Assembly: GCA_041659685.1 (NCBI GenBank)
Contig: JBAZXV010000002.1
Location: forward strand, 120,195-184,194
DNA: 64,000 nt
From: Parcubacteria group bacterium
GTDB taxonomy: Bacteria > Patescibacteriota > Minisyncoccia > Moranbacterales > UBA11712
Direction of reading: 5' to 3'
The notes under the pieces: model-generated
Databases searched by the model: none
Told to the model about the DNA's origin: nothing
The model's input: only the letters and a program-made list of their open reading frames with translations
Part shown: one piece after another, positions 9,594 through 59,409 of the stretch
Position numbering within the stretch: position 1 is the first letter of the stretch
Layout: every line of letters begins with the position of its first letter
Made by a program: the position numbers and the translations under genes

Positions 9594-9935
9594 TTTGAGA
9601 AATAATTTTTCAACGAGAGAATTATTTGTTATAATTATATCAACGATTTTACGGGGGTGTGAATTATGTATTGGCTAAGTCCATGGGAGAAGGCATTAGA
9701 CATTGTTGCCAGGAATCTTTTTTGGAAAGCTTATCGGAAAAAGGATCTTCCAAAAAAGATTGAGATTGAAATGGAGCTCAAAATCTTCGAGCAAGACCAA
9801 TCTCTGTTCATTCGACTTATTGAGTTTTGCCAAAATATTGGTTGGGAATCGGCTGAATTCAAAAAGAGCGAGGAGAGGAGCATCTTCCTTGTGCTTAAAA
9901 GAGCGCAAAAAAGATGTTCTTCAGGCTGAGCCCGC

Positions 9936-11462
9936 TTACTGAGCGGGCTCAAGGATTTTCATCGATATTCCTTCCAGTCCGAACGGTTTGGCTTTTTCGA
10001 TTTTAACTTTTTGAAAACTCCCGATGGGGATTTTTTTGTTGGAGGAAAATATAACTTTCTTTTGAGTGCGGGTGTGGCTCGAGTATCTATATAAAATTCG
10101 AGTCGAAATTCTTTTCGTCCAAGGTTCGGCCTTTTTTCCTCCGACGTTACGTCGGAGTTCCTCAAGGTCAAACCTTTTATCAACTAAAACTTCAACGGAT
10201 TTTCTAACATACTTTTTATTGTTCGCAAGAGCTGTTTTTTTCAGAATTTCCGTGAGGACTTTTTCGCGGCGGACTTTTTCTTTTTTTGAAACATTGTCCT
10301 TCATCTTCCAGGCGGCGGTTTCAGGGCGCGGCGAGTATTGGGCGATATAGGCCATATCAAATTTCATGTCGCGGAAAAGCTTGGCGGTATTTTCAAATTG
10401 ATTTTTTGTTTCGCCGGGAAATCCGACAATTATGTCGGTGGAAACAGCGGGCGGCAGTTTGGAGACTAAGTCTCCAATTGGGGACTTAGTCTCCAAGTAG
10501 GCGCGGCGGATTTTTTTGATGAGGCACTTATAGTGTTCGGTTGTGTATTTGCGGTTCATTTTACGAAGGATTGTGTCATCTCCCGATTGGGCGGGCAAGG
10601 AAACATATTCACAAACTTTTTTGCATTTGGAAATTGTTTCTATGAGTTCATCGGACATATCTTTTGGGTGGCTGGTGAGAAACGTCAGCCAGAAGTTTCC
10701 GGGAATGACATCTATTAGTCTTAATAAGTCGGCAAAGCCAATAGCCTGCTTTTTTGAATCATGAATCATGAACCTCGAATTATGGTTTCTCGATTTTTTC
10801 CCTGATTCACAATTCATAATTCCTAATTCATTTTTGTAGCTATTCACATTCTGACCAAGCAAAAAAATTTCTCTGTATCCTTTTTTCACCAGGCTGCGAA
10901 CTTCTTTCAAAATGTTTTCAGCCGGCCTTGAATATTCCCTTCCGCGGGCGTAGGGCACGACGCAGTAGGCACAGAAATTGTTGCAGCCGGTCATGACGGG
11001 AATATAAGCGGTATACTTGTTGGTGTATGTCGGCTCTATTTTTAAGTAATCATTACATGGTTTATTTTTTGAATTATGAATTATGAATTTTGAATCAGGG
11101 TTTTTATTTTTTCTCCATAATTCCTGATTCATAATTCCTGATTCAATTATTTCTTGTGGAAAATATTTAATTTCACAAAATAAATCAACCTTTCCCTTGA
11201 GCCTTCTCCGGACATCTTTTCGATGGGCGAGGCAGCCAGTCAATATTATTTTTTTCTTAGGGTATTTTTTTCGCAGGTTATGAACCAGCCCATAAACCCT
11301 GTCCTCCGGTGTTTGGCGTACGCCGCAGGTGACGAACACGATTAAATCAGCCGCATCAATCGAGGCGGCCGGTTTAAGTTTGTTTTTTTTGAGAATTGTC
11401 GCAATTCTTTCGGCGTCGGAATAATTCATCTGGCAGCCGAATATTTTGAGAAAGTAGGTCAT
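9936..11462 (-). CDS. miaB: Radical SAM methylthiotransferase (MiaB-like) with in-frame insertions
   Basis: N-terminal MTTase domain (IFGCQMNYSD). Radical SAM CxxxCxxC (TGCNNFCAYC). C-terminal TRAM-like region. It is 508 aa versus about 445 typical. Two roughly 27-aa inserts (GIMNQELWRKNKNPDSKFIIHNSKNKP and GIMNCESGKKSRNHNSRFMIHDSKKQA) are encoded by palindromic DNA. It lies adjacent to miaA. Confidence 0.85.
   Translation of the reverse strand: MTYFLKIFGCQMNYSDAERIATILKKNKLKPAASIDAADLIVFVTCGVRQTPEDRVYGLVHNLRKKYPKKKIILTGCLAHRKDVRRRLKGKVDLFCEIKYFPQEIIESGIMNQELWRKNKNPDSKFIIHNSKNKPCNDYLKIEPTYTNKYTAYIPVMTGCNNFCAYCVVPYARGREYSRPAENILKEVRSLVKKGYREIFLLGQNVNSYKNELGIMNCESGKKSRNHNSRFMIHDSKKQAIGFADLLRLIDVIPGNFWLTFLTSHPKDMSDELIETISKCKKVCEYVSLPAQSGDDTILRKMNRKYTTEHYKCLIKKIRRAYLETKSPIGDLVSKLPPAVSTDIIVGFPGETKNQFENTAKLFRDMKFDMAYIAQYSPRPETAAWKMKDNVSKKEKVRREKVLTEILKKTALANNKKYVRKSVEVLVDKRFDLEELRRNVGGKKAEPWTKRISTRILYRYSSHTRTQKKVIFSSNKKIPIGSFQKVKIEKAKPFGLEGISMKILEPAQ
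10462..10495. repeat. Perfect palindrome GGAGACTAAGTCTCC plus a partial second copy, inside the miaB coding sequence
   Basis: ggagactaagtctcc-aattgg-ggacttagtctcc. It encodes LETKSPIGDLVSKL in frame. Confidence 0.6.
10755..10830. repeat. About 76-bp palindromic element (copy 1) inserted in frame in miaB
   Basis: tgaatcatgaatcatgaacctcgaattatgg...ccctgattcacaattcataattcctaattca. It contains an internal inverted repeat and is in reverse orientation relative to copy 2. Confidence 0.6.
11071..11146. repeat. About 76-bp palindromic element (copy 2) inserted in frame in miaB
   Basis: tgaattatgaattatgaattttgaatcaggg...ccataattcctgattcataattcctgattca. The left arm is approximately the reverse complement of the right arm of copy 1. 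Confidence 0.6.
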
Positions 11463-42226: not shown

Positions 42227-42979
42227 GTGAGAATTATGAAAAAAATTTTTAAGCCAGTTGTCCAATTTTATCTCAAGATTTTCACCAAAATTATTCTCCG
42301 GCGGCACAGGCCTTTTGTTATTTCTGTGGCGGGAACCACAAATAAAACCACAGTCAAGGAATACATCCTTAAGTTTCTCCGGGAAAAGTACGGTGAAAGC
42401 GAAGTCCGGGGAAACCCGAAATCTTATAATACGGAGATTGGTTTGCCCCTGGCTATCCTGTATCTCGAATCAGGAGATTCATCTTCTTTGAAATGGCTTA
42501 AAATCCTCATTCAAGCCAAAATAATGGCTCTCTTCGGGCGAAAATTTCCCTCCAAGCTTGTTTTAGAGCTGGGAGTGGAAGAAAAAGGAGACATGAAAGA
42601 ACTGCTTGAGATAGTGAAGCCGAATGTGGCGATTATCACTAATATAGAAGGAAGCTACACGTATTCAAATTCCAGCCTGGAAGTAATCAAGGACGAGCTG
42701 AAGCAGCTTATTTTGAAAATACCCGCGGATGGTTATGTCCTATTGAACAGCGACGATGAAAGAGTGAAAGAACTTAAGGATTTTGCCAGGGGAAAAGTCA
42801 TTACATACGGATTCCAGGAAGGATCAGACGCGTGGGCCACGGAACAAAAAACTGATGTCGAAGGACAAACTTTCAGCTTCGATTTTCAGGGAAAAAGCGA
42901 GCCAGTCCGCATCAGAAAATACGGCCGTCAGAATATTTACGCCTGGATGGCGGCTAAGGTAGTAAAAAGCATTTTATGA
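42227..42979 (+). CDS. Mur ligase family protein, MurF-like central domain only (truncated)
   Basis: P-loop ISVAGTTNKTT followed by NTEIGLPLAIL, which matches the MurF NxxIGxPLT motif. It is only 250 aa, lacking the N- and C-terminal Mur ligase domains. It lies directly upstream of ftsQ, as in dcw clusters. Confidence 0.55.
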   Translation: MRIMKKIFKPVVQFYLKIFTKIILRRHRPFVISVAGTTNKTTVKEYILKFLREKYGESEVRGNPKSYNTEIGLPLAILYLESGDSSSLKWLKILIQAKIMALFGRKFPSKLVLELGVEEKGDMKELLEIVKPNVAIITNIEGSYTYSNSSLEVIKDELKQLILKIPADGYVLLNSDDERVKELKDFARGKVITYGFQEGSDAWATEQKTDVEGQTFSFDFQGKSEPVRIRKYGRQNIYAWMAAKVVKSIL

Positions 42980-51833: not shown

Positions 51834-54374
51834 ATGGATGCGTTGAATCTTAATTTAATTCTGTATCCGCTGGCCGGCCTTCTGGCGCTTGCCAGCCTGA
51901 TTTCCGGTTTTTGGATGGTATTTCGAAGTTTCTCTATTTTTCGCGGGGAGATAACCCGGTCCTTAAACATGGACATGGATGTCGTAAAGGTGAGCCATTC
52001 GCTCAAGACCCAATCGCAATCATCACAACAGCAACAGCAGCAGCCAAAACCGGAAAAGGAAATAATTTCCGTTATGGAACACCTCTTTGCCAGTCTTGGA
52101 AATATAAAAGAAAAAGCGGGATTTTGGCACAGGATAATATACGGCGACGCAGTGATCGCGCTTGAAATTGCCAATCCGTCTGAAAACGACGAAATTTGTT
52201 TTTATATCGGGGCGCCAAAAAAATTCATCTCAATCGTGGAGCGCCAAGTCCACAGTTTTTTCCCGAAAGCGTCCATCGAAAGAGTGAAGGATTACAATAT
52301 ATTTTACCCGGGCAGCAGAACGGCTGCTTCATATCTTATGCTTCGCGACAAGGACTGCCTTCCGGTTCGCACGTACCAAACGCTCGAATCCGATCCTCTT
52401 AACAATATCACCAACGTCCTTGGAAAATTCGACGAGAAAAAAGAAGGAGCCGCCATTCAAGTTCTCATTAAGCCGGCTCGCGGAGACTGGAGAAGCAAGG
52501 GAAGGGAGATTGCCCATAAGATGCAGCAGGGCAGGCGCCTTGCTGACGTAAAGAGAGACACACCCGTCCGGCTTTTCCTTCGGGGCTTTTTTAGTATTAT
52601 TTTTAAAAAAGACGATGACCAAAAAAAAGATATATTCAAGCCGAACAAAGAGCAGGTTCAACTGACGCCTGAAGAACAGGAGATAGTGAAAAAAATCGAG
52701 GGAAAATCTAATAAACCTGGTTTTGGCGTCAACATCAGGCTGGTGGCTTCCGCTTTGAACCAGGAAAGGGCCGAGTCGATCTTGGCGGAGCTTGAGAACG
52801 CTTTCATCCAGTATGAAAATCCAAGCATCAACGGATTCAAGGTAGTGAGGGACAGCAAGAAAAATAGCAACAACACCGCCTTTAATTTCATATTTCGGAT
52901 TTTCAAAAATGAGCAGAGCTTCGTTCTTTCTTCGGAGGAAATATCGAGTATCTTTCATTTCCCTCTTTTTTCGACTGAAACGCCGAAGATTGCCTGGCTC
53001 AAGGCCAGAACTGCCGCGCCGCCTTCAAATATTTCCAAGGAGGGGATAAAACTCGGTTTTAACGATTATCGGGGAGTGGACACGGTTATCCATCATGCGG
53101 ATGATGACCGCCGCCGCCATTTCTATATTATCGGTCAGACCGGAACCGGAAAATCAACCATGATGGAAGAAATGGTGAAGCAGGACATAATAAACGGAAA
53201 AGGAGTTTGCGTTATTGATCCCCATGGCGAGTTCGTGGAGCATGTGATCGAATGCGTTCCGAAAGAAAGGGCGGAGGACGTCATCTATTTCGACCCGGGC
53301 GATATGGAAAGGCCGTTCGGGCTCAACATGCTCGAATACGATACATCGAAGCCGGAACAGAAGACATTTGTCATTAATGAAATGATAAATATTTTTGACA
53401 AGCTGTATGACCTTAAGCAAACCGGTGGTCCGATGTTCGAGCAATATATGCGAAACGCGGCCCTTCTTGTCATGGAACATCCCGAATCAGGATCGACTCT
53501 CATGGAAATTCCGCGGGTGCTCGCTGACGAAGAATTCCGGCACCTCAAGCTTTCTCACTGCACCAATCCGATTGTCAAAAATTTTTGGGAAAAGGAAGCC
53601 GAAAAAGCGGGCGGAGAAGCGGCTCTTGCCAATATGGTTCCTTATATCACATCGAAACTCACTCAGTTCATATCAAATGATATGATGCGGCCGATTATCG
53701 CCCAGGAAAAAACGACCGTGAATTTCCGTCGGGCCATGGATGAACAGCAAATAGTCCTCGTCAATCTTTCCAAAGGAAAAATAGGGGAAATAAATGCCAA
53801 TCTTTTGGGTATGATAATCGTTGGGAAAATTTTAATTTCGGCTCTTTCGCGGGTGGATATGCCGGAAGAGGAACGCAAGGACTTTTATCTCTATATCGAC
53901 GAATTTCAGAATTTTACAACTGATTCAATCGCCCAAATTCTCTCCGAGGCGCGAAAATACCGTCTGGCCCTCGTCATAGCTCACCAGTTCATTGCCCAGC
54001 TCAAGGAAGAAATATCAAAAGCTGTCTTCGGAAACGTGGGATCGATTTGCTCATTCCGTGTTGGCGCGGAAGACGCAGAGTTTCTGCAAAAACAATTCGA
54101 GCCGGTTTTTGACGCAAACGATCTCATGAACGTAGATAACAGAAATTGTTTCATGAAACTTCTCATCGCGAGCCAGGTGGCTTCGCCCTTCAATATGAAG
54201 ACATATCCGCCGACGAAGGGCAGCGCAAAGATTGCCGAAGCGATAAAAGAGCTTTCTAAATTGAAATATGGAAGAAATCGTGATATAGTAAATGAAGAGA
54301 TAATGAAAAAATCTAATTATGTTACTCCGCCGCCTTCTGCCGACGCGTTCGATATGGGGGAAAAACCATTATAA
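51834..54374 (+). CDS. Membrane-anchored P-loop ATPase of the VirB4/TraC/HerA/FtsK superfamily
   Basis: N-terminal TM (LILYPLAGLLALASLISGFWMVF). Walker A at about aa 435 (HFYIIGQTGTGKSTMM). A DPHGE motif. Walker B (FYLYIDEFQNF). 846 aa. The Walker A position near residue 440 resembles VirB4-type conjugative ATPases. Confidence 0.75.
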   Translation: MDALNLNLILYPLAGLLALASLISGFWMVFRSFSIFRGEITRSLNMDMDVVKVSHSLKTQSQSSQQQQQQPKPEKEIISVMEHLFASLGNIKEKAGFWHRIIYGDAVIALEIANPSENDEICFYIGAPKKFISIVERQVHSFFPKASIERVKDYNIFYPGSRTAASYLMLRDKDCLPVRTYQTLESDPLNNITNVLGKFDEKKEGAAIQVLIKPARGDWRSKGREIAHKMQQGRRLADVKRDTPVRLFLRGFFSIIFKKDDDQKKDIFKPNKEQVQLTPEEQEIVKKIEGKSNKPGFGVNIRLVASALNQERAESILAELENAFIQYENPSINGFKVVRDSKKNSNNTAFNFIFRIFKNEQSFVLSSEEISSIFHFPLFSTETPKIAWLKARTAAPPSNISKEGIKLGFNDYRGVDTVIHHADDDRRRHFYIIGQTGTGKSTMMEEMVKQDIINGKGVCVIDPHGEFVEHVIECVPKERAEDVIYFDPGDMERPFGLNMLEYDTSKPEQKTFVINEMINIFDKLYDLKQTGGPMFEQYMRNAALLVMEHPESGSTLMEIPRVLADEEFRHLKLSHCTNPIVKNFWEKEAEKAGGEAALANMVPYITSKLTQFISNDMMRPIIAQEKTTVNFRRAMDEQQIVLVNLSKGKIGEINANLLGMIIVGKILISALSRVDMPEEERKDFYLYIDEFQNFTTDSIAQILSEARKYRLALVIAHQFIAQLKEEISKAVFGNVGSICSFRVGAEDAEFLQKQFEPVFDANDLMNVDNRNCFMKLLIASQVASPFNMKTYPPTKGSAKIAEAIKELSKLKYGRNRDIVNEEIMKKSNYVTPPPSADAFDMGEKPL

Positions 54375-54453
54375 ATGAAAAATGCAAAAATAAAAGTGAA
54401 AAATGACAATTTAAAATGCAAAATTATTTTAATGTTCAATTTATTATAATATT

Positions 54454-54624
54454 ATGACAGACGATCAATTTCAAGAGCAATCCGAAGAACAGGGGACACT
54501 CGACCCCCATTGCGTTTCCTGCGGCATGCCCATGAAAAAAGAAGAAGAATACGGAACAAATGCGGATGGAAGTAAAAATAATGAATATTGCTGCCATTGC
54601 CTTATTGATGGCGAGAAAAAATAA
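54454..54624 (+). CDS. Small zinc-ribbon protein (56 aa)
   Basis: MTDDQFQEQSEEQGTLDPHCVSCGMPMKKEEEYGTNADGSKNNEYCCHCLIDGEKK, with CxxC...CxxC pairs. It lies directly downstream of the ATPase. Confidence 0.4.
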   Translation: MTDDQFQEQSEEQGTLDPHCVSCGMPMKKEEEYGTNADGSKNNEYCCHCLIDGEKK

Positions 54625-54650
54625 AAGTAAACTAGAAAGCGAGGTGAAAT

Positions 54651-54815
54651 ATGACAGACGACATGACAACAACTCCTCCGGCAGACGACACGCAAGCCGA
54701 CGAAGGGATGCAAACTCAGCCAATGACTCCTGCAGGAGAAACTCCTGCAGAAGAAGCTCCAGTTGAGGAAACTCCGGCTGAAGAAGGCGCGGAAGCGACT
54801 CCTCCGACTGAATAG
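54651..54815 (+). CDS. Small acidic Pro/Thr/Glu-rich ORF (54 aa)
   Basis: MTDDMTTTPPADDTQADEGMQTQPMTPAGETPAEEAPVEETPAEEGAEATPPTE. It shares the MTDD start with the preceding ORF. The sequence is low-complexity and the call is low-confidence. Confidence 0.25.
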   Translation: MTDDMTTTPPADDTQADEGMQTQPMTPAGETPAEEAPVEETPAEEGAEATPPTE

Positions 54816-54958
54816 TAAGTAGCCACGCTATTTATCCGCCTTTGCAGAAGGCCACGAGTGTTTTCTAAGCTAAAATACACGAAAATCTTCTGCTTCGGCG
54901 GATTCCGCACTGATGAATAAAATTATTTGTCGGGCTTGCGGAACTTCATAATCAAAAA

Positions 54959-55002: not shown

Positions 55003-55473
55003 TTATCCATTCTTCATTTCATCATACTCTTTTACGGTCTGTCCGAATATTCCTTTTTCCTCTTCTTCTGTCAGTCTGGCACGTTTTTTTTCTCCAAGTT
55101 GATGCAAGCGGGCTTGTCTGACCATCGACTCGGTCAGTTTTTTTGCAAATAACGGATTGCTTTCTGTTTCTCCGCTCTTTTTCCGCCTGGTGAAAAATTC
55201 GTATATATGATTTATTAAGTTAGTCGCTTTTTCGGAATCCAGATCATCCTTGTCAAATATTTTTTTATCTATTAAAAATACTTTTATTAAGAATCTGATA
55301 TTATGCTCTGCTTTTTCTTTTGGCAATTCCGATGTTGTTTGGTCCTTGGGCTGCTTTGCCATCATTTCCAAAAATCCGTTTCCCAGTTCTTCGAGTATAA
55401 TTATTTCGCCGTCTCGAGTTGCGGATTCCTCATTTGGAGCCGGACCGCCGAATTTTTCATTTGATTCCATCAT
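55003..55473 (-). CDS. Hypothetical protein (156 aa)
   Basis: Overlaps the upstream DUF763-like gene by 4 nt (ATGA), which suggests translational coupling. No family recognised. Confidence 0.5.
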   Translation of the reverse strand: MMESNEKFGGPAPNEESATRDGEIIILEELGNGFLEMMAKQPKDQTTSELPKEKAEHNIRFLIKVFLIDKKIFDKDDLDSEKATNLINHIYEFFTRRKKSGETESNPLFAKKLTESMVRQARLHQLGEKKRARLTEEEEKGIFGQTVKEYDEMKNG

Positions 55474-56615
55474 ATTAATTTATTGGATAATTTCTTTTTT
55501 TCAGAATATCCGATTTTCATTTTCTCTACAAGCTTTTGCATTGTTGCGATAGTCTCGTCGTATGTCGGGCGGTCGACGGGGTAGGGGATGAAGTCTTTTC
55601 CGCCATGAGCGAAAGAATAGCGGGCCGGGTCTTCATATGACGCTTTTGCGCCATAAATCACTTCCGCGGTGAGAGCGAGAGCCCGGATGGTTTTTGGACC
55701 GACACCCTTGAGAGACAAAAGCTCTTCGTAACTCTTCGGCTTGATTTCAGAAACTTCATATAAAATCTTTTGCAGGTATTTGCTTTTGGTGAAATCTTCA
55801 GTGACAACGGGCAAAACCTTGAAGTCCCGGTCGTGGAGATGCATTGTGGTCAATTCCTGGTTTCTGTTTCCAATTGAAACAACGTCACTTTGCGGCGTGG
55901 AATATTTTCGAAGTAGCTGAAAATCATTCATGAGAGTTTTATAGCTCCCTTGCACGAGTTCTGTTGAAATTTTTTGAGTATTTTCGCTTTCCCGCGCGGC
56001 CATATTCAGGCCGACATGCCGGCCATCGGAGATGATCCCGCTGTGCGGCTCAAGGACAAGATTCTTGGCGGTGTCAGAATACCAATGGTATCTTCTCGCG
56101 GTTACATTTTTTTCGTTCATTCCCTGTTGCACAACCGCCCAGGCGCCGTTTCGTGAAAAGAAAAATGAATGGTGATAAATTTGGAATCCGTCTTGAACGA
56201 GCGAGGAGTCGACTTTGGCTGCCATTCGGGAATTATATTCCAAAGAATTTATTTTTTCCTGAGAAAGCTCCGCCCGCGCCCCAAAGAGGGAAATCTGTTC
56301 CGGAGTTTTGAGGGAAGTTTTCCCTTTACCGCCGCAAATGTATATTCCGAGGTCCATTTCTTCGTCACGGATGGCTTCTTTGAGAGCGGCCGTTAAAATA
56401 GTGGTGAGGCCCGAGGCGTTCCAGTCAAAAGCCAGCACCGTTCCGAGTGCCTGAAACCAGACCGGATCGGCGATTCGGCGAACGTATTCATCCGGCCCGT
56501 ATTCGGCAATAATCACCCGTGTCATCTCCCGCCCCAATTTCACCATCCGCTCAAACAGCCATCTCGGACACTTGCCGTAATCAAGGGTAAATGTGGCAAT
56601 TCCTCTCTTAAACAT
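55470..56615 (-). CDS. DUF763-like protein
   Basis: The N-terminal segment KCPRWLFERMVKLGREMTRVIIAEYGPDEYVRRIADPVWFQALGTVLAFDWNASGLTTI matches my recollection of the DUF763 family (H.GK.P.WL..RM...DP.WFQA..C.LGFDW.SSG.TT). This is from memory and has not been verified. Confidence 0.55.
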   Translation of the reverse strand: MFKRGIATFTLDYGKCPRWLFERMVKLGREMTRVIIAEYGPDEYVRRIADPVWFQALGTVLAFDWNASGLTTILTAALKEAIRDEEMDLGIYICGGKGKTSLKTPEQISLFGARAELSQEKINSLEYNSRMAAKVDSSLVQDGFQIYHHSFFFSRNGAWAVVQQGMNEKNVTARRYHWYSDTAKNLVLEPHSGIISDGRHVGLNMAARESENTQKISTELVQGSYKTLMNDFQLLRKYSTPQSDVVSIGNRNQELTTMHLHDRDFKVLPVVTEDFTKSKYLQKILYEVSEIKPKSYEELLSLKGVGPKTIRALALTAEVIYGAKASYEDPARYSFAHGGKDFIPYPVDRPTYDETIATMQKLVEKMKIGYSEKKKLSNKLI

Positions 56616-56697
56616 AAAATACCTTTTAGTAACGTTTCGTGTTGTGGGTTATGTGCCTCGAGAGCACACTATCACTATATCACCAATATCAGCTCCA

Positions 56698-56730
56698 AGC
56701 AAAACAAAAACACTGCAATAAATTGCAGTG
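56698..56730 (-). terminator. Intrinsic terminator after the ATP-grasp gene (minus strand)
   Basis: Perfect 9-bp hairpin CACTGCAAT-AA-ATTGCAGTG. On the minus strand it is followed by TTTTTGTTTTG. Confidence 0.55.
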
Positions 56731-56758
56731 GGAAAAAAATTGGAAAAGTTCAGTATAA

Positions 56759-57625
56759 TTAAATAAGCAAGTTCATGCTCTCGAGCAAGGATTTTTGGTT
56801 CACGTTTTGGATTTCGATGCCCGGACGGCCGTTGATTTCGATGAGGACGACGCGATCATTTTTGTCGATGATCAAATCCACCCCGGAAATAAGAAGTTGG
56901 GAAAGTTTAGAGGCCTCTATAGAGGCCTCTATCAATTTGCCCCAATGCGGGATGCGAAAGTTTTCCGGAATGTCAAAATCCGAAAGTTTGAATGCGCGTT
57001 CCTCTTTTTTGGAAAAAAGATGCGTCACTTTGCCGGTTTTGACGTCGATGCCGACGCCGATGGCGCCGACGGTGAGGTTGGCCCGTCCGCGGGTGGCTTT
57101 GGTCGAATGTCTCAGCATGGCCATGACGGGAACGAAATTTACGCAAAAAATCCGGATGTCGGGCAGGCCGGCGGAGTGTTTGAACATAATTTTTGGCGAC
57201 GGATAGATTCTTTCCTCAACGATTGCGACATCTCTTTCCGAATGGCCGGAATATTCACCATCCAGGATGCGGCGAATGTGTTTTCGAATTTGTTTTTCGG
57301 AATACTTTTCGCCCGAAGGATCAAAAAACTTCCCGTCTTTCTTCTCAAGGACCATGATGCCGCTTCCGCCGAAGCCCCGGGACGGCTTGATCACGAATTC
57401 TTCCGGGAAAAGCCGGATTTTTTCAAGATCCGCGATGTTTTCAATTTCGAAAAAAGTTTTCGGCGAATATATTCCATGCTGAGAAAAGAGTTTTTTGGCC
57501 GCCGCTTTATTCTTGGCGAGGTCGAGTGATTCCCAGAAATTATATTCCCGAATCAAGAAATTGCGAAAATTCATGCCGAGCGGCTTTTTCTTTTCAGAAA
57601 AATATTTTCTGGACAAATTAATCAT
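56759..57625 (-). CDS. RimK-like ATP-grasp ligase (alpha-L-glutamate-ligase-like)
   Basis: 288 aa. FVIKPSRGFGGSGIMV (ATP-grasp B-loop) and a C-terminal LIEINGRPGIEIQN (Mg/ATP-binding E..N motif). Confidence 0.7.
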   Translation of the reverse strand: MINLSRKYFSEKKKPLGMNFRNFLIREYNFWESLDLAKNKAAAKKLFSQHGIYSPKTFFEIENIADLEKIRLFPEEFVIKPSRGFGGSGIMVLEKKDGKFFDPSGEKYSEKQIRKHIRRILDGEYSGHSERDVAIVEERIYPSPKIMFKHSAGLPDIRIFCVNFVPVMAMLRHSTKATRGRANLTVGAIGVGIDVKTGKVTHLFSKKEERAFKLSDFDIPENFRIPHWGKLIEASIEASKLSQLLISGVDLIIDKNDRVVLIEINGRPGIEIQNVNQKSLLESMNLLI

Positions 57626-58737
57626 TTTTTTCGAAGCATCTTAAAGCGAAAAAATTCGGTGAAACGGAGGCCGTTATAATGTCCGGCCGCGATCGCGAGC
57701 AGGATGGAGGCGGCGAAAATGAGCCAGATGGCGCCATACGATTGCGTAATAAGATAGCTGCCGATGAAAGTGAGGACAACGGCCAAGGCCATGGTTTGCA
57801 CCGTGAGCAAGATTGCGTCGCCAATTCGGTGTTCGCCGACAGTTTTCGAAAATCTTTCGATGATGTGAGTCGTGATGATGAGCGGAAAAAAGACCGTGGT
57901 GACGGCGACTTGAAAACCGAGCGGCAGAAAAGAAAAACCGACCAGTGACAAAACGACAGCCGACATAATGAGCGACATTTCGGCGACATGCGGCAGTTTC
58001 AATTTTTCAAAAAAAATAATTTTGAAGCCGGTGCCGATGGAAATGAGAAAAATATAAATAAAAATTCCCTGAACGATGTTTGGCGACATCAAAATGAGCG
58101 AAAGGGCGATGACGACGGGAGCAAAAACTCCAAAAGTTCTGAGACCCCCGATGAGCTGGAAAAGAACCACTAGAGCGCCGAGAATCGGGATGATGAGAAT
58201 GTCTTTGCTGACGGCGCGGTTGGCCGAGCGAGCCAAAATTATGGCTTTTGAGAATCGCTGATTGACCGGAGCTTTCGGTTCATTCAAAAATTGTCGGGCC
58301 GGATCAATGGTGAATCCGAGAAGATCTTGGCGTCCGATGATCATGTCGGTGTTGAGTTGCGACCGATCGGCGACGGACAGAACTGAACTGATAGTTTTGT
58401 CTCCGAGGATAAATTCTGCATTGACAGTTTCTCGAACCTGAACTCCCGAGGCACTGATAACCCGGCGTTTCAATTTGTTGCGCTGAAGTCCCAGTCGGTC
58501 GGCGAGCGAAGAGTCGATGGCGGAAAAATCCGCGCCTGTGTCGGTTTTGGCGACGATATTGGCCGGACCCTGAGGCGAGAGCAGAATGACATTTTCCTGA
58601 GATCCGATCAGGGAGCTCGTTTCGTTTCTTGATTCAAAAAAATCGATGAGAACCCCGGCCAAGATTGCGAGGGCGAGGGCGGTCGAAAAAATGGCGATTC
58701 TGCGGCGTTTTGAAATTTTTGGGTTGGTGAATTGCAT
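57622..58737 (-). CDS. Retropepsin-like aspartyl protease fused to a C-terminal 7-TM domain
   Basis: N-terminal TM. Aspartyl protease motifs AKTDTGADFSAID ... MIIGRQDLLGFTID. About 7 predicted TM helices in the C-terminal 200 aa. It overlaps the ATP-grasp gene by 4 nt. Confidence 0.7.
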   Translation of the reverse strand: MQFTNPKISKRRRIAIFSTALALAILAGVLIDFFESRNETSSLIGSQENVILLSPQGPANIVAKTDTGADFSAIDSSLADRLGLQRNKLKRRVISASGVQVRETVNAEFILGDKTISSVLSVADRSQLNTDMIIGRQDLLGFTIDPARQFLNEPKAPVNQRFSKAIILARSANRAVSKDILIIPILGALVVLFQLIGGLRTFGVFAPVVIALSLILMSPNIVQGIFIYIFLISIGTGFKIIFFEKLKLPHVAEMSLIMSAVVLSLVGFSFLPLGFQVAVTTVFFPLIITTHIIERFSKTVGEHRIGDAILLTVQTMALAVVLTFIGSYLITQSYGAIWLIFAASILLAIAAGHYNGLRFTEFFRFKMLRKK

Positions 58738-58953
58738 ATGTTTGAATTAATATATCCTTCTCCTAACTATACTCATATTTCAGAATTTTACAAAAAAAAT
58801 TATTCACTATTTTTCTTAGAAAATTTAGTCAATATATTTGTATTTACCGTTTCATACTGCAATATTGACAAAATAATAGTTTTGTTGTAGCTTCACAACA
58901 GATCCAGGGAATAACTCCCGATGGATATAACCCTAACTAAGGAGGACATAAAA

Positions 58954-59409
58954 ATGTCCGAGCATCAGTGGCCGACTCTTTATGAGGTGTATTTCGCAGT
59001 ATGGAAAGCGCTGGGTGAAGAAGGCATTAGGATGGTTCAATATGGGGAAGTTGAATTTCCCTGCAGCGCTAGTCGTTTCAATGATTGCATTCCGGCAGAT
59101 ATTTTTATTTACCTCACTCGGTATTACTTTAAAGCTGAGTTGAGGGTAGTAAAAAGTGATAGTGAAAGTGCCTGGGTAAGAGAAGCGGTCCTAAGGCAGA
59201 TATCGAAAGACTTTAAGGAGTCCTATACGGTATACGCGAGGGATTTCAAGAGCGGACTATTTTGTCCGGTCCGCGAAATGGCCTGGAACCTGGCCGGAGC
59301 GCTGGAAGCGTTTCGGACTCTGTGGCCGAAAATAAAAGCGTCCGAGGAGAAATACAGCACTAAACTCGAAGAAATCAGACAGCGGGCACTCGACGAGTGC
59401 TTTGGCTAA
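58954..59409 (+). CDS. Hypothetical protein (151 aa), GC-rich relative to neighbours
   Basis: Strong SD (AAGGAGG) 7 nt upstream of the ATG at 58954. GC is about 48% versus about 40% locally. No family recognised. Confidence 0.5.
   Translation: MSEHQWPTLYEVYFAVWKALGEEGIRMVQYGEVEFPCSASRFNDCIPADIFIYLTRYYFKAELRVVKSDSESAWVREAVLRQISKDFKESYTVYARDFKSGLFCPVREMAWNLAGALEAFRTLWPKIKASEEKYSTKLEEIRQRALDECFG

What the first reader, a model, noticed from the sequence alone, without database searches (positions are those of the whole stretch)
55003..58737. Translationally coupled retropepsin-7TM protease + RimK-like ATP-grasp ligase, followed by DUF763-like and hypothetical genes
On the minus strand there are four tightly linked genes with two 4-nt ATGA overlaps:
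- a membrane protein made of a retropepsin-like aspartyl protease domain (DTGA...IIGRQDLL) fused to a polytopic, roughly 7-TM C-terminal domain;
- a RimK-like ATP-grasp amidoligase;
- after a clean hairpin terminator, a DUF763-like protein coupled to a 156-aa hypothetical.

ATP-grasp ligases linked to 'Zn_protease'-type retropepsins and 7TM modules have been proposed from comparative genomics to form peptide ligation/processing/export systems. To my knowledge none has been biochemically characterised. Fusion of the protease directly to the 7TM module is a compact variant. A possible function is peptide tagging, or synthesis and cleavage of a small peptide or metabolite at the membrane.
Basis: partly seen in the sequence, partly recalled or inferred. 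Interest (0 to 1): 0.7.

Follow-up and report, generated by a model that had tools for sequence, protein, structure and literature searches.

The report
Compact two-gene Rlo-like protease–ligase module
A candidate-phyla (Parcubacteria) bacterium carries a conserved two-gene version of the recently named Pseudomonas "Rlo" envelope-stress system, in which the outward-facing aspartic protease is fused to the 7-helix membrane protein and paired with a cytoplasmic RimK-like ligase; it is a real new architectural variant of a known system, not a new kind of system.

Summary

The functional unit is only the first two genes:
- a 371-aa protein with an N-terminal TM anchor, an extracytoplasmic retropepsin domain and a 7TM_transglut domain;
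- a 288-aa ATPgrasp_ST ligase.

This pair is adjacent, usually overlapping, in 14 of 14 distinct related loci (Parcubacteria, Moranbacteria, Chloroflexi, Nitrospiraceae) whose flanking genes differ. One contig encodes all three modules as a single chain. DUF763 and the 156-aa ORF lie behind a terminator and are not conserved neighbours.

The system is homologous to rloABC of Pseudomonas aeruginosa (Lormand 2025): RloA is a secreted poly-Glu-cleaving retropepsin, RloB an inactive-transglutaminase 7TM protein, RloC an ATP-grasp. Here the retropepsin takes the place of the transglutaminase domain on the 7TM protein.

The best solved structural matches are the RloA crystal structures, and the basic residues needed for poly-Glu cleavage are invariant.

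Most likely mechanism (inferred): the ligase makes an anionic, probably poly-alpha-glutamate-type, product at the 7TM's cytoplasmic face, and the tethered dimeric protease trims it outside.

Novelty: new variant of a known kind. Interest is moderate.

The parts
58766..58793 (-). Sigma-70-like promoter match (TTGTAA-16-TATAGT) about 30 nt upstream of the fused gene
   Evidence: Consensus match only (9 of 12), and the number of such matches in the region does not exceed the shuffled expectation. Weak evidence.
57622..58737 (-). Gene 1: 371-aa membrane protein with an N-terminal TM anchor, a retropepsin-like domain, a flexible linker and a 7TM_transglut domain (an RloA-like domain fused to an RloB-like 7TM)
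   Evidence: domain hits; 100% match to a Parcubacteria MAG protein plus 24 fused relatives; AF2 model, mean pLDDT 76.
58642..58698 (-). N-terminal signal-anchor helix (residues 14-32), preceded by a cytoplasmic stub with 5 K/R
   Evidence: hydropathy peak 2.31; positive-inside rule; helix 6-36.
58282..58617 (-). Retropepsin-like aspartic protease domain (residues ~41-152), predicted to be extracytoplasmic. Catalytic D66 (codon 58540-58542) sits in AKTDTGA. K64, R102 and R125 are invariant. The IIGRQDLL motif is present.
58213..58281 (-). Poorly conserved linker of low predicted order (residues 153-175) between the protease and the 7TM domain
   Evidence: pLDDT below 50 for residues 152-175. 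One search shows the linker expanded by repeats in relative P0157.
57682..58212 (-). Seven-helix membrane domain (residues ~176-352, PF14402)
   Evidence: 86.8 bits against a cut-off of 25; aligns to positions 317-507 of the 508-position RloB model; seven hydrophobic segments; no convincing solved homologue.
57643..57678 (-). Cytoplasmic C-terminal motif Y-x-G-L-R-x-T-E-x-x-R-F (residues 354-365), conserved in both the fused and the RloB-type 7TM proteins. Candidate docking or functional site facing the ligase.
   Evidence: at least 91% identity at Y354, G356, R358, E361, R364 and F365 in both groups. The docking role is inference.
56759..57625 (-). Gene 2: 288-aa cytoplasmic ATP-grasp ligase (ATPgrasp_ST, RloC/RimK-like), whose start overlaps the stop of gene 1 (ATGA). 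ATP and Mg residues are intact: K80, G-loop 84-89, E137, D250, E263, N265.
   Evidence: PF14397, E 1.7e-48; TIGR02291 at 175 bits, below the cut-off of 314; invariant columns; best solved relatives are RimK 7qys/5zct/4iwx at E ~1e-11, then cyanophycin synthetase.
56711..56730 (-). Intrinsic-terminator-like hairpin that ends the two-gene unit
   Evidence: (8-bp stem, 4 GC pairs, T-rich tail) and the sequence.
55470..56615 (-). Neighbouring DUF763/HhH gene, judged NOT to be part of the module
   Evidence: PF05559, E 9e-123; present only in the 82% relative L001 and absent from the nine divergent loci then held (L002-L010). L011 and L012 have no DUF763 call either. Loci fetched later were not screened for DUF763.
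55003..55473 (-). 156-aa ORF overlapping the DUF763 stop (ATGA). Strain-specific and of unknown function. NOT part of the module.
   Evidence: no family; no detectable homologue even in L001, where an unrelated ~100-aa ORF occupies the position.

Best explanation
Genes 58737..57622 and 57625..56759 form a self-contained two-gene homologue of the Rlo system (rloABC of Pseudomonas).

**Shown**
- Gene 1 has an N-in signal anchor, a retropepsin-like domain on the outer face of the membrane, and a 7TM_transglut domain whose conserved polar residues and C-terminal tail face the cytoplasm.
- Gene 2 is a catalytically intact cytoplasmic ATP-grasp amino-acid ligase of the RloC/RimK lineage.
- The two genes are co-inherited as an overlapping pair across phyla.
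- The same modules occur elsewhere as three separate genes, as other pairwise fusions, and once as a single chain.

**Inferred mechanism**
1. The ligase, docked on the cytoplasmic face of the 7TM domain, uses ATP to build an anionic peptide product. A poly-alpha-L-glutamate chain or tail is most likely, as with RimK.
2. The 7TM domain passes this product across the membrane or presents it there.
3. The protease domain works as a dimer, so the membrane protein must dimerise. It cuts the product on the outside, which limits its length or releases it.
4. In Pseudomonas the protease is a separate secreted protein and the 7TM protein carries an inactive transglutaminase domain at the same topological position. 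Here the protease replaces that domain and is held at the site of action.
5. The physiological role is probably envelope or osmotic homeostasis, as reported for rlo.
For: **Homology to Rlo**
- The NCBIfam RloB model aligns to residues 180-370, and the RloA3 and RimB models hit the protease domain weakly.
- The ATP-grasp's nearest relatives outside its own clade are "alpha-L-glutamate ligase-like" TIGR02291-type proteins. Its best solved relatives are RimK enzymes, then cyanophycin synthetase.

**Functional competence**
- DTGA is invariant in the 24-member alignment. K64, R102 and R125 are also invariant.
- The HMMER alignment places K64, R102 and R125 opposite K26, R94 and R117 of chain 9G58. 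Their spacing from the catalytic Asp (-2, +66, +89) equals that of K46, R114 and R137 of RloA. Of these, R114A and R137A most reduced poly-Glu cleavage and failed to complement in vivo (PMC12239564).
- The ligase keeps K80, the Gly loop, E137, D250, E263 and N265.

**Topology**
- The protein has a positively charged N-terminal stub, 1 + 7 helices, and a C-terminal tail with 6 K/R.
- The residues conserved in both the fused and the RloB-type 7TM domains (R194, which is Q in the window protein; T201; E294; R358; E361; R364) all lie on the predicted cytoplasmic face.

**Linkage**
- The ATP-grasp directly follows the fused gene in all 14 distinct loci that have downstream sequence. Of the nine loci with called genes, seven show overlaps of 4-17 nt and two show gaps of 1 and 7 nt. 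The flanking genes are unrelated.
- Percent identities of the two proteins across 8 loci are almost perfectly rank-correlated.
- P0165 encodes retropepsin + 7TM + ATP-grasp in one 657-aa chain.
- P0149 has two tandem protease domains (DTGA and DSGS) on one 7TM, which fits a need for a protease dimer.
- Separate-gene permutations of the same three modules are seen in L025-L027, L042 and L075.

**Genetic logic** (PMC12239564): deleting rloB or rloC suppresses the rloA1-3 null phenotype. This suggests RloB/C generate something the protease must process.
Against: - No experiment exists for this family or for any CPR bacterium. The product of RloC itself is unknown, so "poly-glutamate" is extrapolated from RimK and from RloA's in-vitro specificity.
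- The window proteins score far below the curated cut-offs of the RloA/RloB equivalogs and of TIGR02291. The protease domain is below the PF05618 cut-off.
- The protease domain has no net positive charge (12 K/R against 12 D/E). The flap residues that contact substrate in RloA cannot be aligned.
- The ligase lacks the ~85-residue N-terminal pre-ATP-grasp domain of RimK. Its Pfam family is named for an association with sugar transferases, so a non-Glu or non-peptide acceptor is possible.
- No solved homologue supports a transport function for the 7TM domain.
- Five of the 46 fused representative clusters have lost the D[TS]G motif, so the outer domain can be retained without catalysis.
- The single-chain fusion P0165 rests on one 4-kb contig.
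- The topology is predicted, not measured.
Confidence: 0.55

Rival explanations
1. Sensor or regulator model. The 7TM protein is not a conduit. It is a membrane receptor or scaffold that controls the cytoplasmic ligase. The outer domain (protease here, inactive transglutaminase in RloB) binds or cleaves an envelope ligand such as a peptidoglycan peptide. The ligase modifies a cytoplasmic target, such as a protein C-terminus, a cofactor or a cell-wall precursor, that never crosses the membrane.
For: - The outer domain is interchangeable and sometimes catalytically dead: an inactive transglutaminase in RloB, and 5 of 46 fused clusters without DTG.
- The conserved residues of the 7TM domain cluster on the cytoplasmic face rather than lining an obvious pore.
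- No transporter-like solved homologue was found.
- In L009 the pair sits inside the dcw cluster between ftsL and ftsI-murE-murD. The rlo mutants have cell-shape and beta-lactam phenotypes (PMC12239564).
Against: - The protease domain keeps the residues needed for poly-Glu cleavage. This ties its substrate chemically to what a RimK-like ligase makes.
- Suppression of the protease-null phenotype by rloB or rloC deletion is explained most simply if the protease removes a B/C-dependent product.
- The C-terminal tails of the 7TM proteins are basic rather than acidic, so they are not RimK-type acceptors.
Confidence: 0.22
2. Precursor model. The fusion is a polyprotein-like precursor. The retropepsin domain cleaves itself off at the disordered linker. 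This yields a free secreted RloA-like protease and a separate 7TM protein, so the system then works exactly like three-gene rloABC.
For: - Retropepsins classically autoprocess from polyproteins (established knowledge).
- The linker at residues 152-175 is disordered and variable in length.
Against: - The linker has no acidic run of the kind RloA cleaves (sequence).
- The N-terminal signal anchor would keep a released domain tethered to the membrane in any case.
- Linker sequences are not conserved, as a cleavage site would be.
Confidence: 0.1
3. Four-gene operon model. DUF763 and the 156-aa protein act together with the protease-7TM and ligase genes.
For: - All four genes are on the same strand and close together, each pair joined by a 4-nt overlap.
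- DUF763 keeps its position in the closest relative, L001.
Against: - A terminator hairpin and a 143-nt spacer separate the two pairs.
- None of the divergent loci has DUF763 nearby.
- The 156-aa ORF is absent even from L001.
Confidence: 0.03

Closest known systems
rloABC operon of Pseudomonas aeruginosa/P. fluorescens (Lormand et al. 2025, mBio, PMC12239564): RloA secreted retropepsin, RloB inactive-transglutaminase 7TM protein, RloC ATP-grasp
   Same: - The same three module types are present.
- The 7TM domain is homologous (PF14402; aligns to positions 317-507 of the RloB model).
- The protease domain's best solved matches are the RloA structures, and it shares the K-x-D-T-G-A, R-(P/D) and D-R-S residues.
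- The ligase belongs to the same ATPgrasp_ST / alpha-L-glutamate-ligase-like lineage.
- The topology is the same: protease outside, ligase inside.
   Different: - Two genes instead of three.
- The protease is covalently fused to the 7TM protein and occupies the place of the inactive transglutaminase domain, which is absent.
- It has a signal anchor instead of a cleaved signal peptide, and it lacks the disulfide cysteines described for periplasmic RloA.
- It keeps the retroviral IIGR motif, which RloA lacks.
- All proteins score far below the NCBIfam equivalog cut-offs.
- The hosts are CPR, Chloroflexi and Nitrospiraceae rather than Gammaproteobacteria.
RimB-RimK (RimABK) ribosomal protein S6 polyglutamylation system (PMC4741518, PMC7343187, PMC11957791)
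   Same: - A retropepsin-like Glu-specific endopeptidase is paired with an ATP-grasp alpha-L-glutamate ligase.
- Natural fusions of protease and ligase exist in both lineages: the RimB-RimK hybrid, and P0075, P0130 and P0241 here.
   Different: - The Rim system is wholly cytoplasmic, has no membrane component, and acts on RpsF.
- RimK has an N-terminal pre-ATP-grasp domain that the window ligase lacks.
- RimK-type models score weakly here (TIGR00768 at 38.6 bits against a cut-off of 143).
Comparative-genomic prediction of ATP-grasp + 7TM-inactive-transglutaminase + aspartyl-protease systems (Iyer, Abhiman, Burroughs & Aravind 2009, Mol Biosyst; source of Pfam PF14397, PF14400 and PF14402)
   Same: The same predicted peptide ligation and processing system at the membrane.
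   Different: I could not read this paper, so I cannot say whether it already lists the protease-7TM fusion. The Pfam name "usually fused to an inactive transglutaminase" suggests that exceptions were known.
Membrane-anchored bacterial retropepsin-like proteases such as Rickettsia APRc/ApRick (PDB 5c9b)
   Different: Only the fold match was tested here.
Synthesise-export-cleave polymer systems (analogy only): poly-gamma-glutamate PgsBCA with CapD/PgdS; cyanophycin synthetase with cyanophycinase
   Same: The logic matches: a non-ribosomal amino-acid polymerase is coupled to a dedicated hydrolase. Cyanophycin synthetase is the second-best solved relative of the ligase.
   Different: The membrane components and the hydrolases are unrelated. 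PgsB is a Mur-ligase-type enzyme, not an ATP-grasp (own knowledge).

Membership tests
Clan AA retropepsin-like aspartic protease (Pfam Asp_protease_2 PF13650) | HMM score above the gathering threshold | tested here: met
   32.3 bits against a cut-off of 24.3, residues 62-136.
Clan AA retropepsin-like aspartic protease | Catalytic D-T/S-G-A motif plus the retropepsin fold | tested here: met
   - D66-T-G-A is invariant in the 24-sequence alignment.
Clan AA retropepsin-like aspartic protease | Homodimer forming a two-Asp active site | not testable with these tools
   Indirect support only. Relative P0149 carries two tandem protease domains (DTGA and DSGS) on one 7TM.
RloA/RimB family (Pfam PF05618; NCBIfam RloA1-3 and RimB equivalogs) | HMM score above the curated cut-off | tested here: not met
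   - PF05618: 20.1 bits against 27.
- RloA3: 23.4 against 210. RimB: 15.5 against 200.
- Some fused relatives do carry a precomputed PF05618 hit.
RloA/RimB family | Basic residues that coordinate poly-Glu (RloA K46, R114, R137) | tested here: met
   K64, R102 and R125 are invariant and align to K26, R94 and R117 of 9G58, which have the same spacing from the catalytic Asp as in RloA. The mapping to RloA(Pa) numbering is inferred from spacing.
RloA/RimB family | Cleavage of runs of 8 or more glutamates | not testable with these tools
   Needs an enzyme assay.
7TM_transglut (Pfam PF14402) | HMM score above the gathering threshold, and seven TM helices | tested here: met
   86.8 bits against a cut-off of 25. 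Seven hydrophobic segments lie in residues 180-352.
RloB (NCBIfam NF052267, inactive transglutaminase + 7TM) | N-terminal inactive transglutaminase domain, and full-length model score | tested here: not met
   57.8 bits against a cut-off of 900. Only model positions 317-507 are matched. There is no Transglut_core or PF14400 hit.
ATP-grasp superfamily, ATPgrasp_ST (PF14397) | HMM score above threshold, and intact ATP/Mg-binding residues | tested here: met
   165.6 bits against a cut-off of 31.4. K80, the G-loop, E137, D250, E263 and N265 are invariant.
TIGR02291 alpha-L-glutamate ligase-like protein (RloC-type) | Score above the curated cut-off | tested here: not met
   175.3 bits against a cut-off of 314.2. 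Proteins named alpha-L-glutamate ligase-like are 31-39% identical to the window ligase. This makes it a sister clade rather than a member.
RimK family (TIGR00768) | Score above the cut-off, and an N-terminal pre-ATP-grasp domain | tested here: not met
   38.6 bits against a cut-off of 143.4. The alignment to RimK starts at RimK residue ~87.
Rlo-type system (operon level) | Conserved genomic linkage of protease, PF14402 7TM and ATPgrasp_ST modules | tested here: met
   14 of 14 distinct fused loci have the ligase as the next gene. One single-chain fusion was found. Three-gene permutations occur in L025-L027, L042 and L075.
Known anti-phage defence systems (PADLOC) | Any model hit | tested here: not met
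   No hits for any of five proteins.

The most novel reading that the evidence does not exclude
The pair is a minimal, self-sufficient machine of two polypeptides (one polypeptide in P0165). It non-ribosomally polymerises glutamate, or another acidic amino acid, in the cytoplasm. It threads the chain through a previously unrecognised 7TM peptide or polymer translocase. It then cuts the chain to length on the cell surface with a tethered retropepsin dimer. On this reading PF14402 would be a new class of exporter, and the surface or released poly-alpha-glutamate would be a new envelope or osmoprotective component of CPR and Chloroflexi cells.
Probability: 0.25. Interest if true: 0.75.

Novelty: new variant of a known kind. 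Interest (0 to 1): 0.5.

Why it matters
The Rlo system affects osmotic tolerance, biofilm formation, cell shape and beta-lactam sensitivity in Pseudomonas aeruginosa. What RloC makes and what RloB does are still unknown (PMC12239564).

The fused variants give three mechanistic constraints:
- The protease works at the outer face of the 7TM protein.
- The inactive transglutaminase domain can be replaced.
- The invariant core is the 7TM protein plus the ATP-grasp, which meet at a conserved cytoplasmic surface.

A two-protein version should be easier to reconstitute than the three-gene system, in which three paralogous proteases act redundantly.

The variant also extends the system from Gammaproteobacteria to CPR bacteria, whose small genomes contain few identified envelope-maintenance functions.

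Tried and rejected
- **Single-sequence phmmer against PDB** gave nothing for the fused protein, the ligase or DUF763. Profiles were needed.
- **The genome-contig scan** returned only one close relative, so neighbourhood evidence came from the look-up of encoding contigs and the metagenome scan.
- **Iyer et al. 2009** (PMC3268129) is not held, so prior description of the fusion could not be checked. Full-text searches for PF14402, PF14397 and 7TM_transglut found no paper discussing the architecture. The Lipocone paper was irrelevant.
- **Monoderm tethering idea dropped.** I considered that the fusion exists because monoderm or CPR cells lack a periplasm to retain a soluble protease. I did not adopt this as a claim, because a Nitrospiraceae (diderm) MAG also has the fusion and most clusters have no taxon name.
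- **The 7TM C-terminus as a RimK-type acceptor** was rejected: the tails are basic, not acidic.
- **A mobile-element or defence context** was rejected. There are no PADLOC hits and the flanks are chromosomal: uvrB, a Mur ligase, an FtsQ-like gene and glycosyltransferases.
- **Rfam and tRNA scans** of the window found nothing.
- **AF2 on the triple fusion** was not run, because the tool returns no inter-domain contacts.

Full report
**1. Observation**

Both junctions are 4-nt ATGA overlaps (sequence).

A terminator-like hairpin (8-bp stem, T-rich tail) lies at 56730..56711, just after the 288-aa gene. A 143-nt spacer then precedes the DUF763 gene.

Pfam returned the predicted families:
- 371-aa protein: Asp_protease_2 and gag-asp_proteas over residues 62-136, plus 7TM_transglut over 173-368.
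- 288-aa protein: ATPgrasp_ST (E 1.7e-48), plus RimK.
- 381-aa protein: DUF763 (E 9e-123) with an HhH motif.
- 156-aa protein: nothing.

An identical 371-aa protein is on record from a Parcubacteria-group MAG, so the window comes from a CPR bacterium. Its surroundings are ordinary chromosomal genes: uvrB, a Mur-ligase fragment, an FtsQ-like protein and PMT_2 glycosyltransferases. The window has no tRNA or Rfam features.

**2. Which genes belong together**

I looked up relatives of the fused protein at 33-58% identity in their own contigs, and added a metagenome scan using the family alignment. In every distinct locus that has downstream sequence (14 of 14), an ATPgrasp_ST gene immediately follows the fused gene on the same strand. 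In the nine loci with called genes, seven junctions overlap by 4-17 nt and two have gaps of 1 and 7 nt.

The flanking genes differ completely from locus to locus. They include superoxide dismutase and FtsEX, thioredoxin and an RND pump, a P-type ATPase, SAM-cycle genes, a dcw cluster and glutamate dehydrogenase.

Identities of the two proteins across eight loci are almost perfectly rank-ordered together. One 4-kb contig encodes retropepsin, 7TM and ATP-grasp as a single 657-aa chain (P0165).

DUF763 is different. It is found only in the 82%-identical relative L001. The 156-aa ORF has no detectable counterpart even there, where an unrelated ~100-aa ORF occupies its position. The functional unit is therefore the first two genes. 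DUF763 and the 156-aa ORF are a separate downstream unit.

**3. Anatomy of gene 1**

Hydropathy and charge distribution give this layout:
- A cytoplasmic N-terminal stub with 5 K/R.
- A signal-anchor helix at residues 14-32.
- About 147 residues outside the membrane, holding the protease domain and a linker.
- Seven helices between residues 180 and 352.
- A cytoplasmic tail with 6 K/R.

All loops obey the positive-inside rule. The AF2 model built from 24 relatives (mean pLDDT 76) shows a beta-rich domain at residues 47-134, a disordered linker at 152-175 and a helical bundle.

In the family alignment, K64, D66, T67, G68, A69, R102, R125 and G135 are invariant.

The HMMER alignment places K64, R102 and R125 opposite K26, R94 and R117 of chain 9G58. 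Their offsets from the catalytic Asp (-2, +66, +89) equal those of K46, R114 and R137 in P. aeruginosa RloA. Of these, R114A and R137A most reduced poly-Glu cleavage and failed to complement in vivo (PMC12239564). The mapping to RloA numbering is my inference from spacing.

The 7TM domain aligns to positions 317-507 of NCBI's 508-position RloB model. It has no convincing solved homologue.

I compared 66 fused proteins with 64 RloB-type proteins (median 512 aa). The positions conserved at 85% or more in both groups are:
- the TM1-TM2 turn (R194, which is Q in the window protein; G198; T201; G203; F205; P207);
- E294 in the TM5-6 loop;
- the C-terminal YxGLRxxExxRF motif.

All the conserved polar or charged residues among these lie on the predicted cytoplasmic face.

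**4. Anatomy of gene 2**

The 288-aa protein is a full-length ATPgrasp_ST domain. Its ATP-binding Lys (K80), Gly-rich loop, E137 and the D250/E263/N265 Mg-binding triad are invariant.

Its own clade (~285 aa, at least 42% identity) consists of partners of fused 7TM proteins. The next relatives, at 31-39% identity, are the 316-330-aa "alpha-L-glutamate ligase-like" proteins. TIGR02291 scores 175 bits, below its cut-off of 314.

The best solved relatives of the family profile are RimK enzymes (7qys, 5zct, 4iwx; E about 1e-11), followed by cyanophycin synthetase and GshAB. The alignment begins at RimK residue ~87, so the pre-ATP-grasp domain is absent here.

**5. What is already known**

NCBIfam's weak hits to RloA, RloB and RimB led to Lormand et al. 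2025 (PMC12239564). Their main findings in P. aeruginosa:
- rloA encodes a secreted retropepsin-like protease. rloB encodes an inner-membrane protein with a periplasmic inactive transglutaminase domain and seven helices. rloC encodes a cytoplasmic ATP-grasp that is 24% identical to RimK.
- RloA forms dimers, has a positively charged substrate channel and cleaves runs of at least eight glutamates in vitro.
- The triple protease mutant is sensitive to hypo-osmotic conditions, is misshapen, and is defective in biofilm formation and beta-lactam tolerance.
- Deleting rloB or rloC suppresses these defects.
- The authors report RloB as 96% proteobacterial and do not mention fused forms.

RimB/RimK is the cytoplasmic paralogous system, and protease-ligase hybrids of it exist (PMC11957791).

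However, the ligase product and the 7TM function remain open.

**6. How the window version differs**

The retropepsin occupies the position that the inactive transglutaminase holds in RloB: between an N-terminal anchor and the 7TM bundle, on the outer face. No transglutaminase domain and no separate protease gene are present.

Among the top 150 representatives of a library clustered at 50% identity:
- 46 clusters carry this fused architecture, and 41 of them keep D[TS]G[AS];
- 64 are RloB-type;
- 39 are free proteases.

Named sources are Parcubacteria, Moranbacteria, Chloroflexi and Nitrospiraceae. The ten clusters I looked up have only one or two members each, and all named sources are metagenome-assembled genomes.

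The modules appear in many permutations:
- tandem double protease + 7TM (P0149);
- ATP-grasp-protease fusions (P0075, P0130, P0241);
- protease > TGase-7TM > ligase (L025, L027);
- 7TM > ligase > protease (L026, L042, L075);
- TGase-7TM + ligase with no protease nearby (L013).

The invariant core is a 7TM protein carrying some extracytoplasmic domain, plus the ATP-grasp.

**7. Mechanism**

Shown: homology, intact catalytic residues, predicted topology and strict linkage.

Inferred:
- The ligase acts at the conserved cytoplasmic surface of the 7TM domain and builds an anionic peptide, most probably poly-alpha-glutamate.
- The 7TM domain transfers or presents this product across the membrane.
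- The tethered protease, which must dimerise, trims it.

The suppression genetics in Pseudomonas fit a model in which the protease disposes of a product that depends on RloB and RloC.

Points against are listed under the best explanation. The main ones are that the RloC product is unknown, the protein scores fall below family cut-offs, the protease domain has neutral net charge, the ligase lacks the pre-ATP-grasp domain, no transporter-like fold was found, and some fused clusters have a dead active site.

The main rival is a sensor or scaffold role for the 7TM protein with a purely cytoplasmic ligase target. Weaker rivals are autoprocessing of the fusion and a four-gene operon.

**8. Verdict**

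The finding is real and conserved, and its domains were correctly identified. It is a new architectural variant of a known, recently named system in lineages where that system had not been described. It is not a categorically new system. It is useful as a minimal form for working out what Rlo systems make. Interest 0.5.

Noticed in passing
window 58921-59409 (+): A 162-aa ORF with no family hit lies between uvrB and the fused gene. In the 82%-identical relative L001, uvrB ends about 180 nt from the fused gene and this ORF is absent, so it is a strain-specific insertion or loss.
   Followed up: partly
window 55003-55473 (-); L001 ~9850-10155: The 156-aa ORF that overlaps the DUF763 stop has no homologue in L001, where a different ~100-aa ORF sits at the same position. 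The slot downstream of DUF763 seems to hold a fast-evolving or replaceable small gene.
   Followed up: partly
window 54436-54910 (-); L001 ~10150-10400: Beyond the terminator after the 156-aa ORF there is a short ORF that ends in a Gly/Ser/Ala-rich stretch (…GGVASAPSSAGVSSTGASSAGVSPAGVIG). A similar low-complexity peptide is encoded at the matching place in L001. It could be a small secreted or surface peptide.
   Followed up: no
window 51834-54374 (+): An 846-aa VirD4/TraD/HerA-like P-loop ATPase with an N-terminal membrane segment and a poly-Q tract, conserved at 82% in L001. No other conjugation genes were seen next to it.
   Followed up: partly
P0149 / L011 4001-5464 (also L018, L022): A fused relative carries two tandem retropepsin domains (DTGA then DSGS) ahead of the 7TM domain. 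This single-chain pseudo-dimer parallels the duplication thought to have produced pepsins. Glutamate dehydrogenase is the next gene after its ATP-grasp partner.
   Followed up: partly
P0177, P0180, P0193, P0196, P0200: Five fused clusters have lost the catalytic D[TS]G motif (NTGI, DTAS, STGV, NTGA and others). This suggests a repeated move to a non-catalytic outer domain, as with RloB's inactive transglutaminase.
   Followed up: no
L009 3998-5876: In one contig the fused gene and its ATP-grasp sit inside the division/cell-wall cluster, between mraW-ftsL(DivIC) and ftsI-murE-murD-murC. This is a single case, but it fits the cell-shape and beta-lactam phenotypes of rlo mutants.
   Followed up: no
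L013 3311-6403: A Transglut_core-7TM protein and its ATP-grasp occur without any protease in the 9.5-kb locus, directly downstream of an aquaporin (MIP) gene. This may hint at an osmotic link.
   Followed up: no
L012 2098-2610: The Nitrospiraceae locus has an extra free RimB/RloA-like 170-aa protease two genes upstream of the fused pair, next to an outer-membrane beta-barrel gene.
   Followed up: no
P0284: A 539-aa protein combines a class-I lysyl-tRNA synthetase domain with a C-terminal RimB/RloA-like protease domain (PF05618 E 4e-6, 27.2 bits against a cut-off of 27, with no stretch passing on its own). This architecture was not examined further.
   Followed up: no
window 42227-42979 (+): A 250-aa ORF contains only the Mur_ligase_M middle domain. 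It may be truncated, or the gene may be split or mis-started.
   Followed up: no
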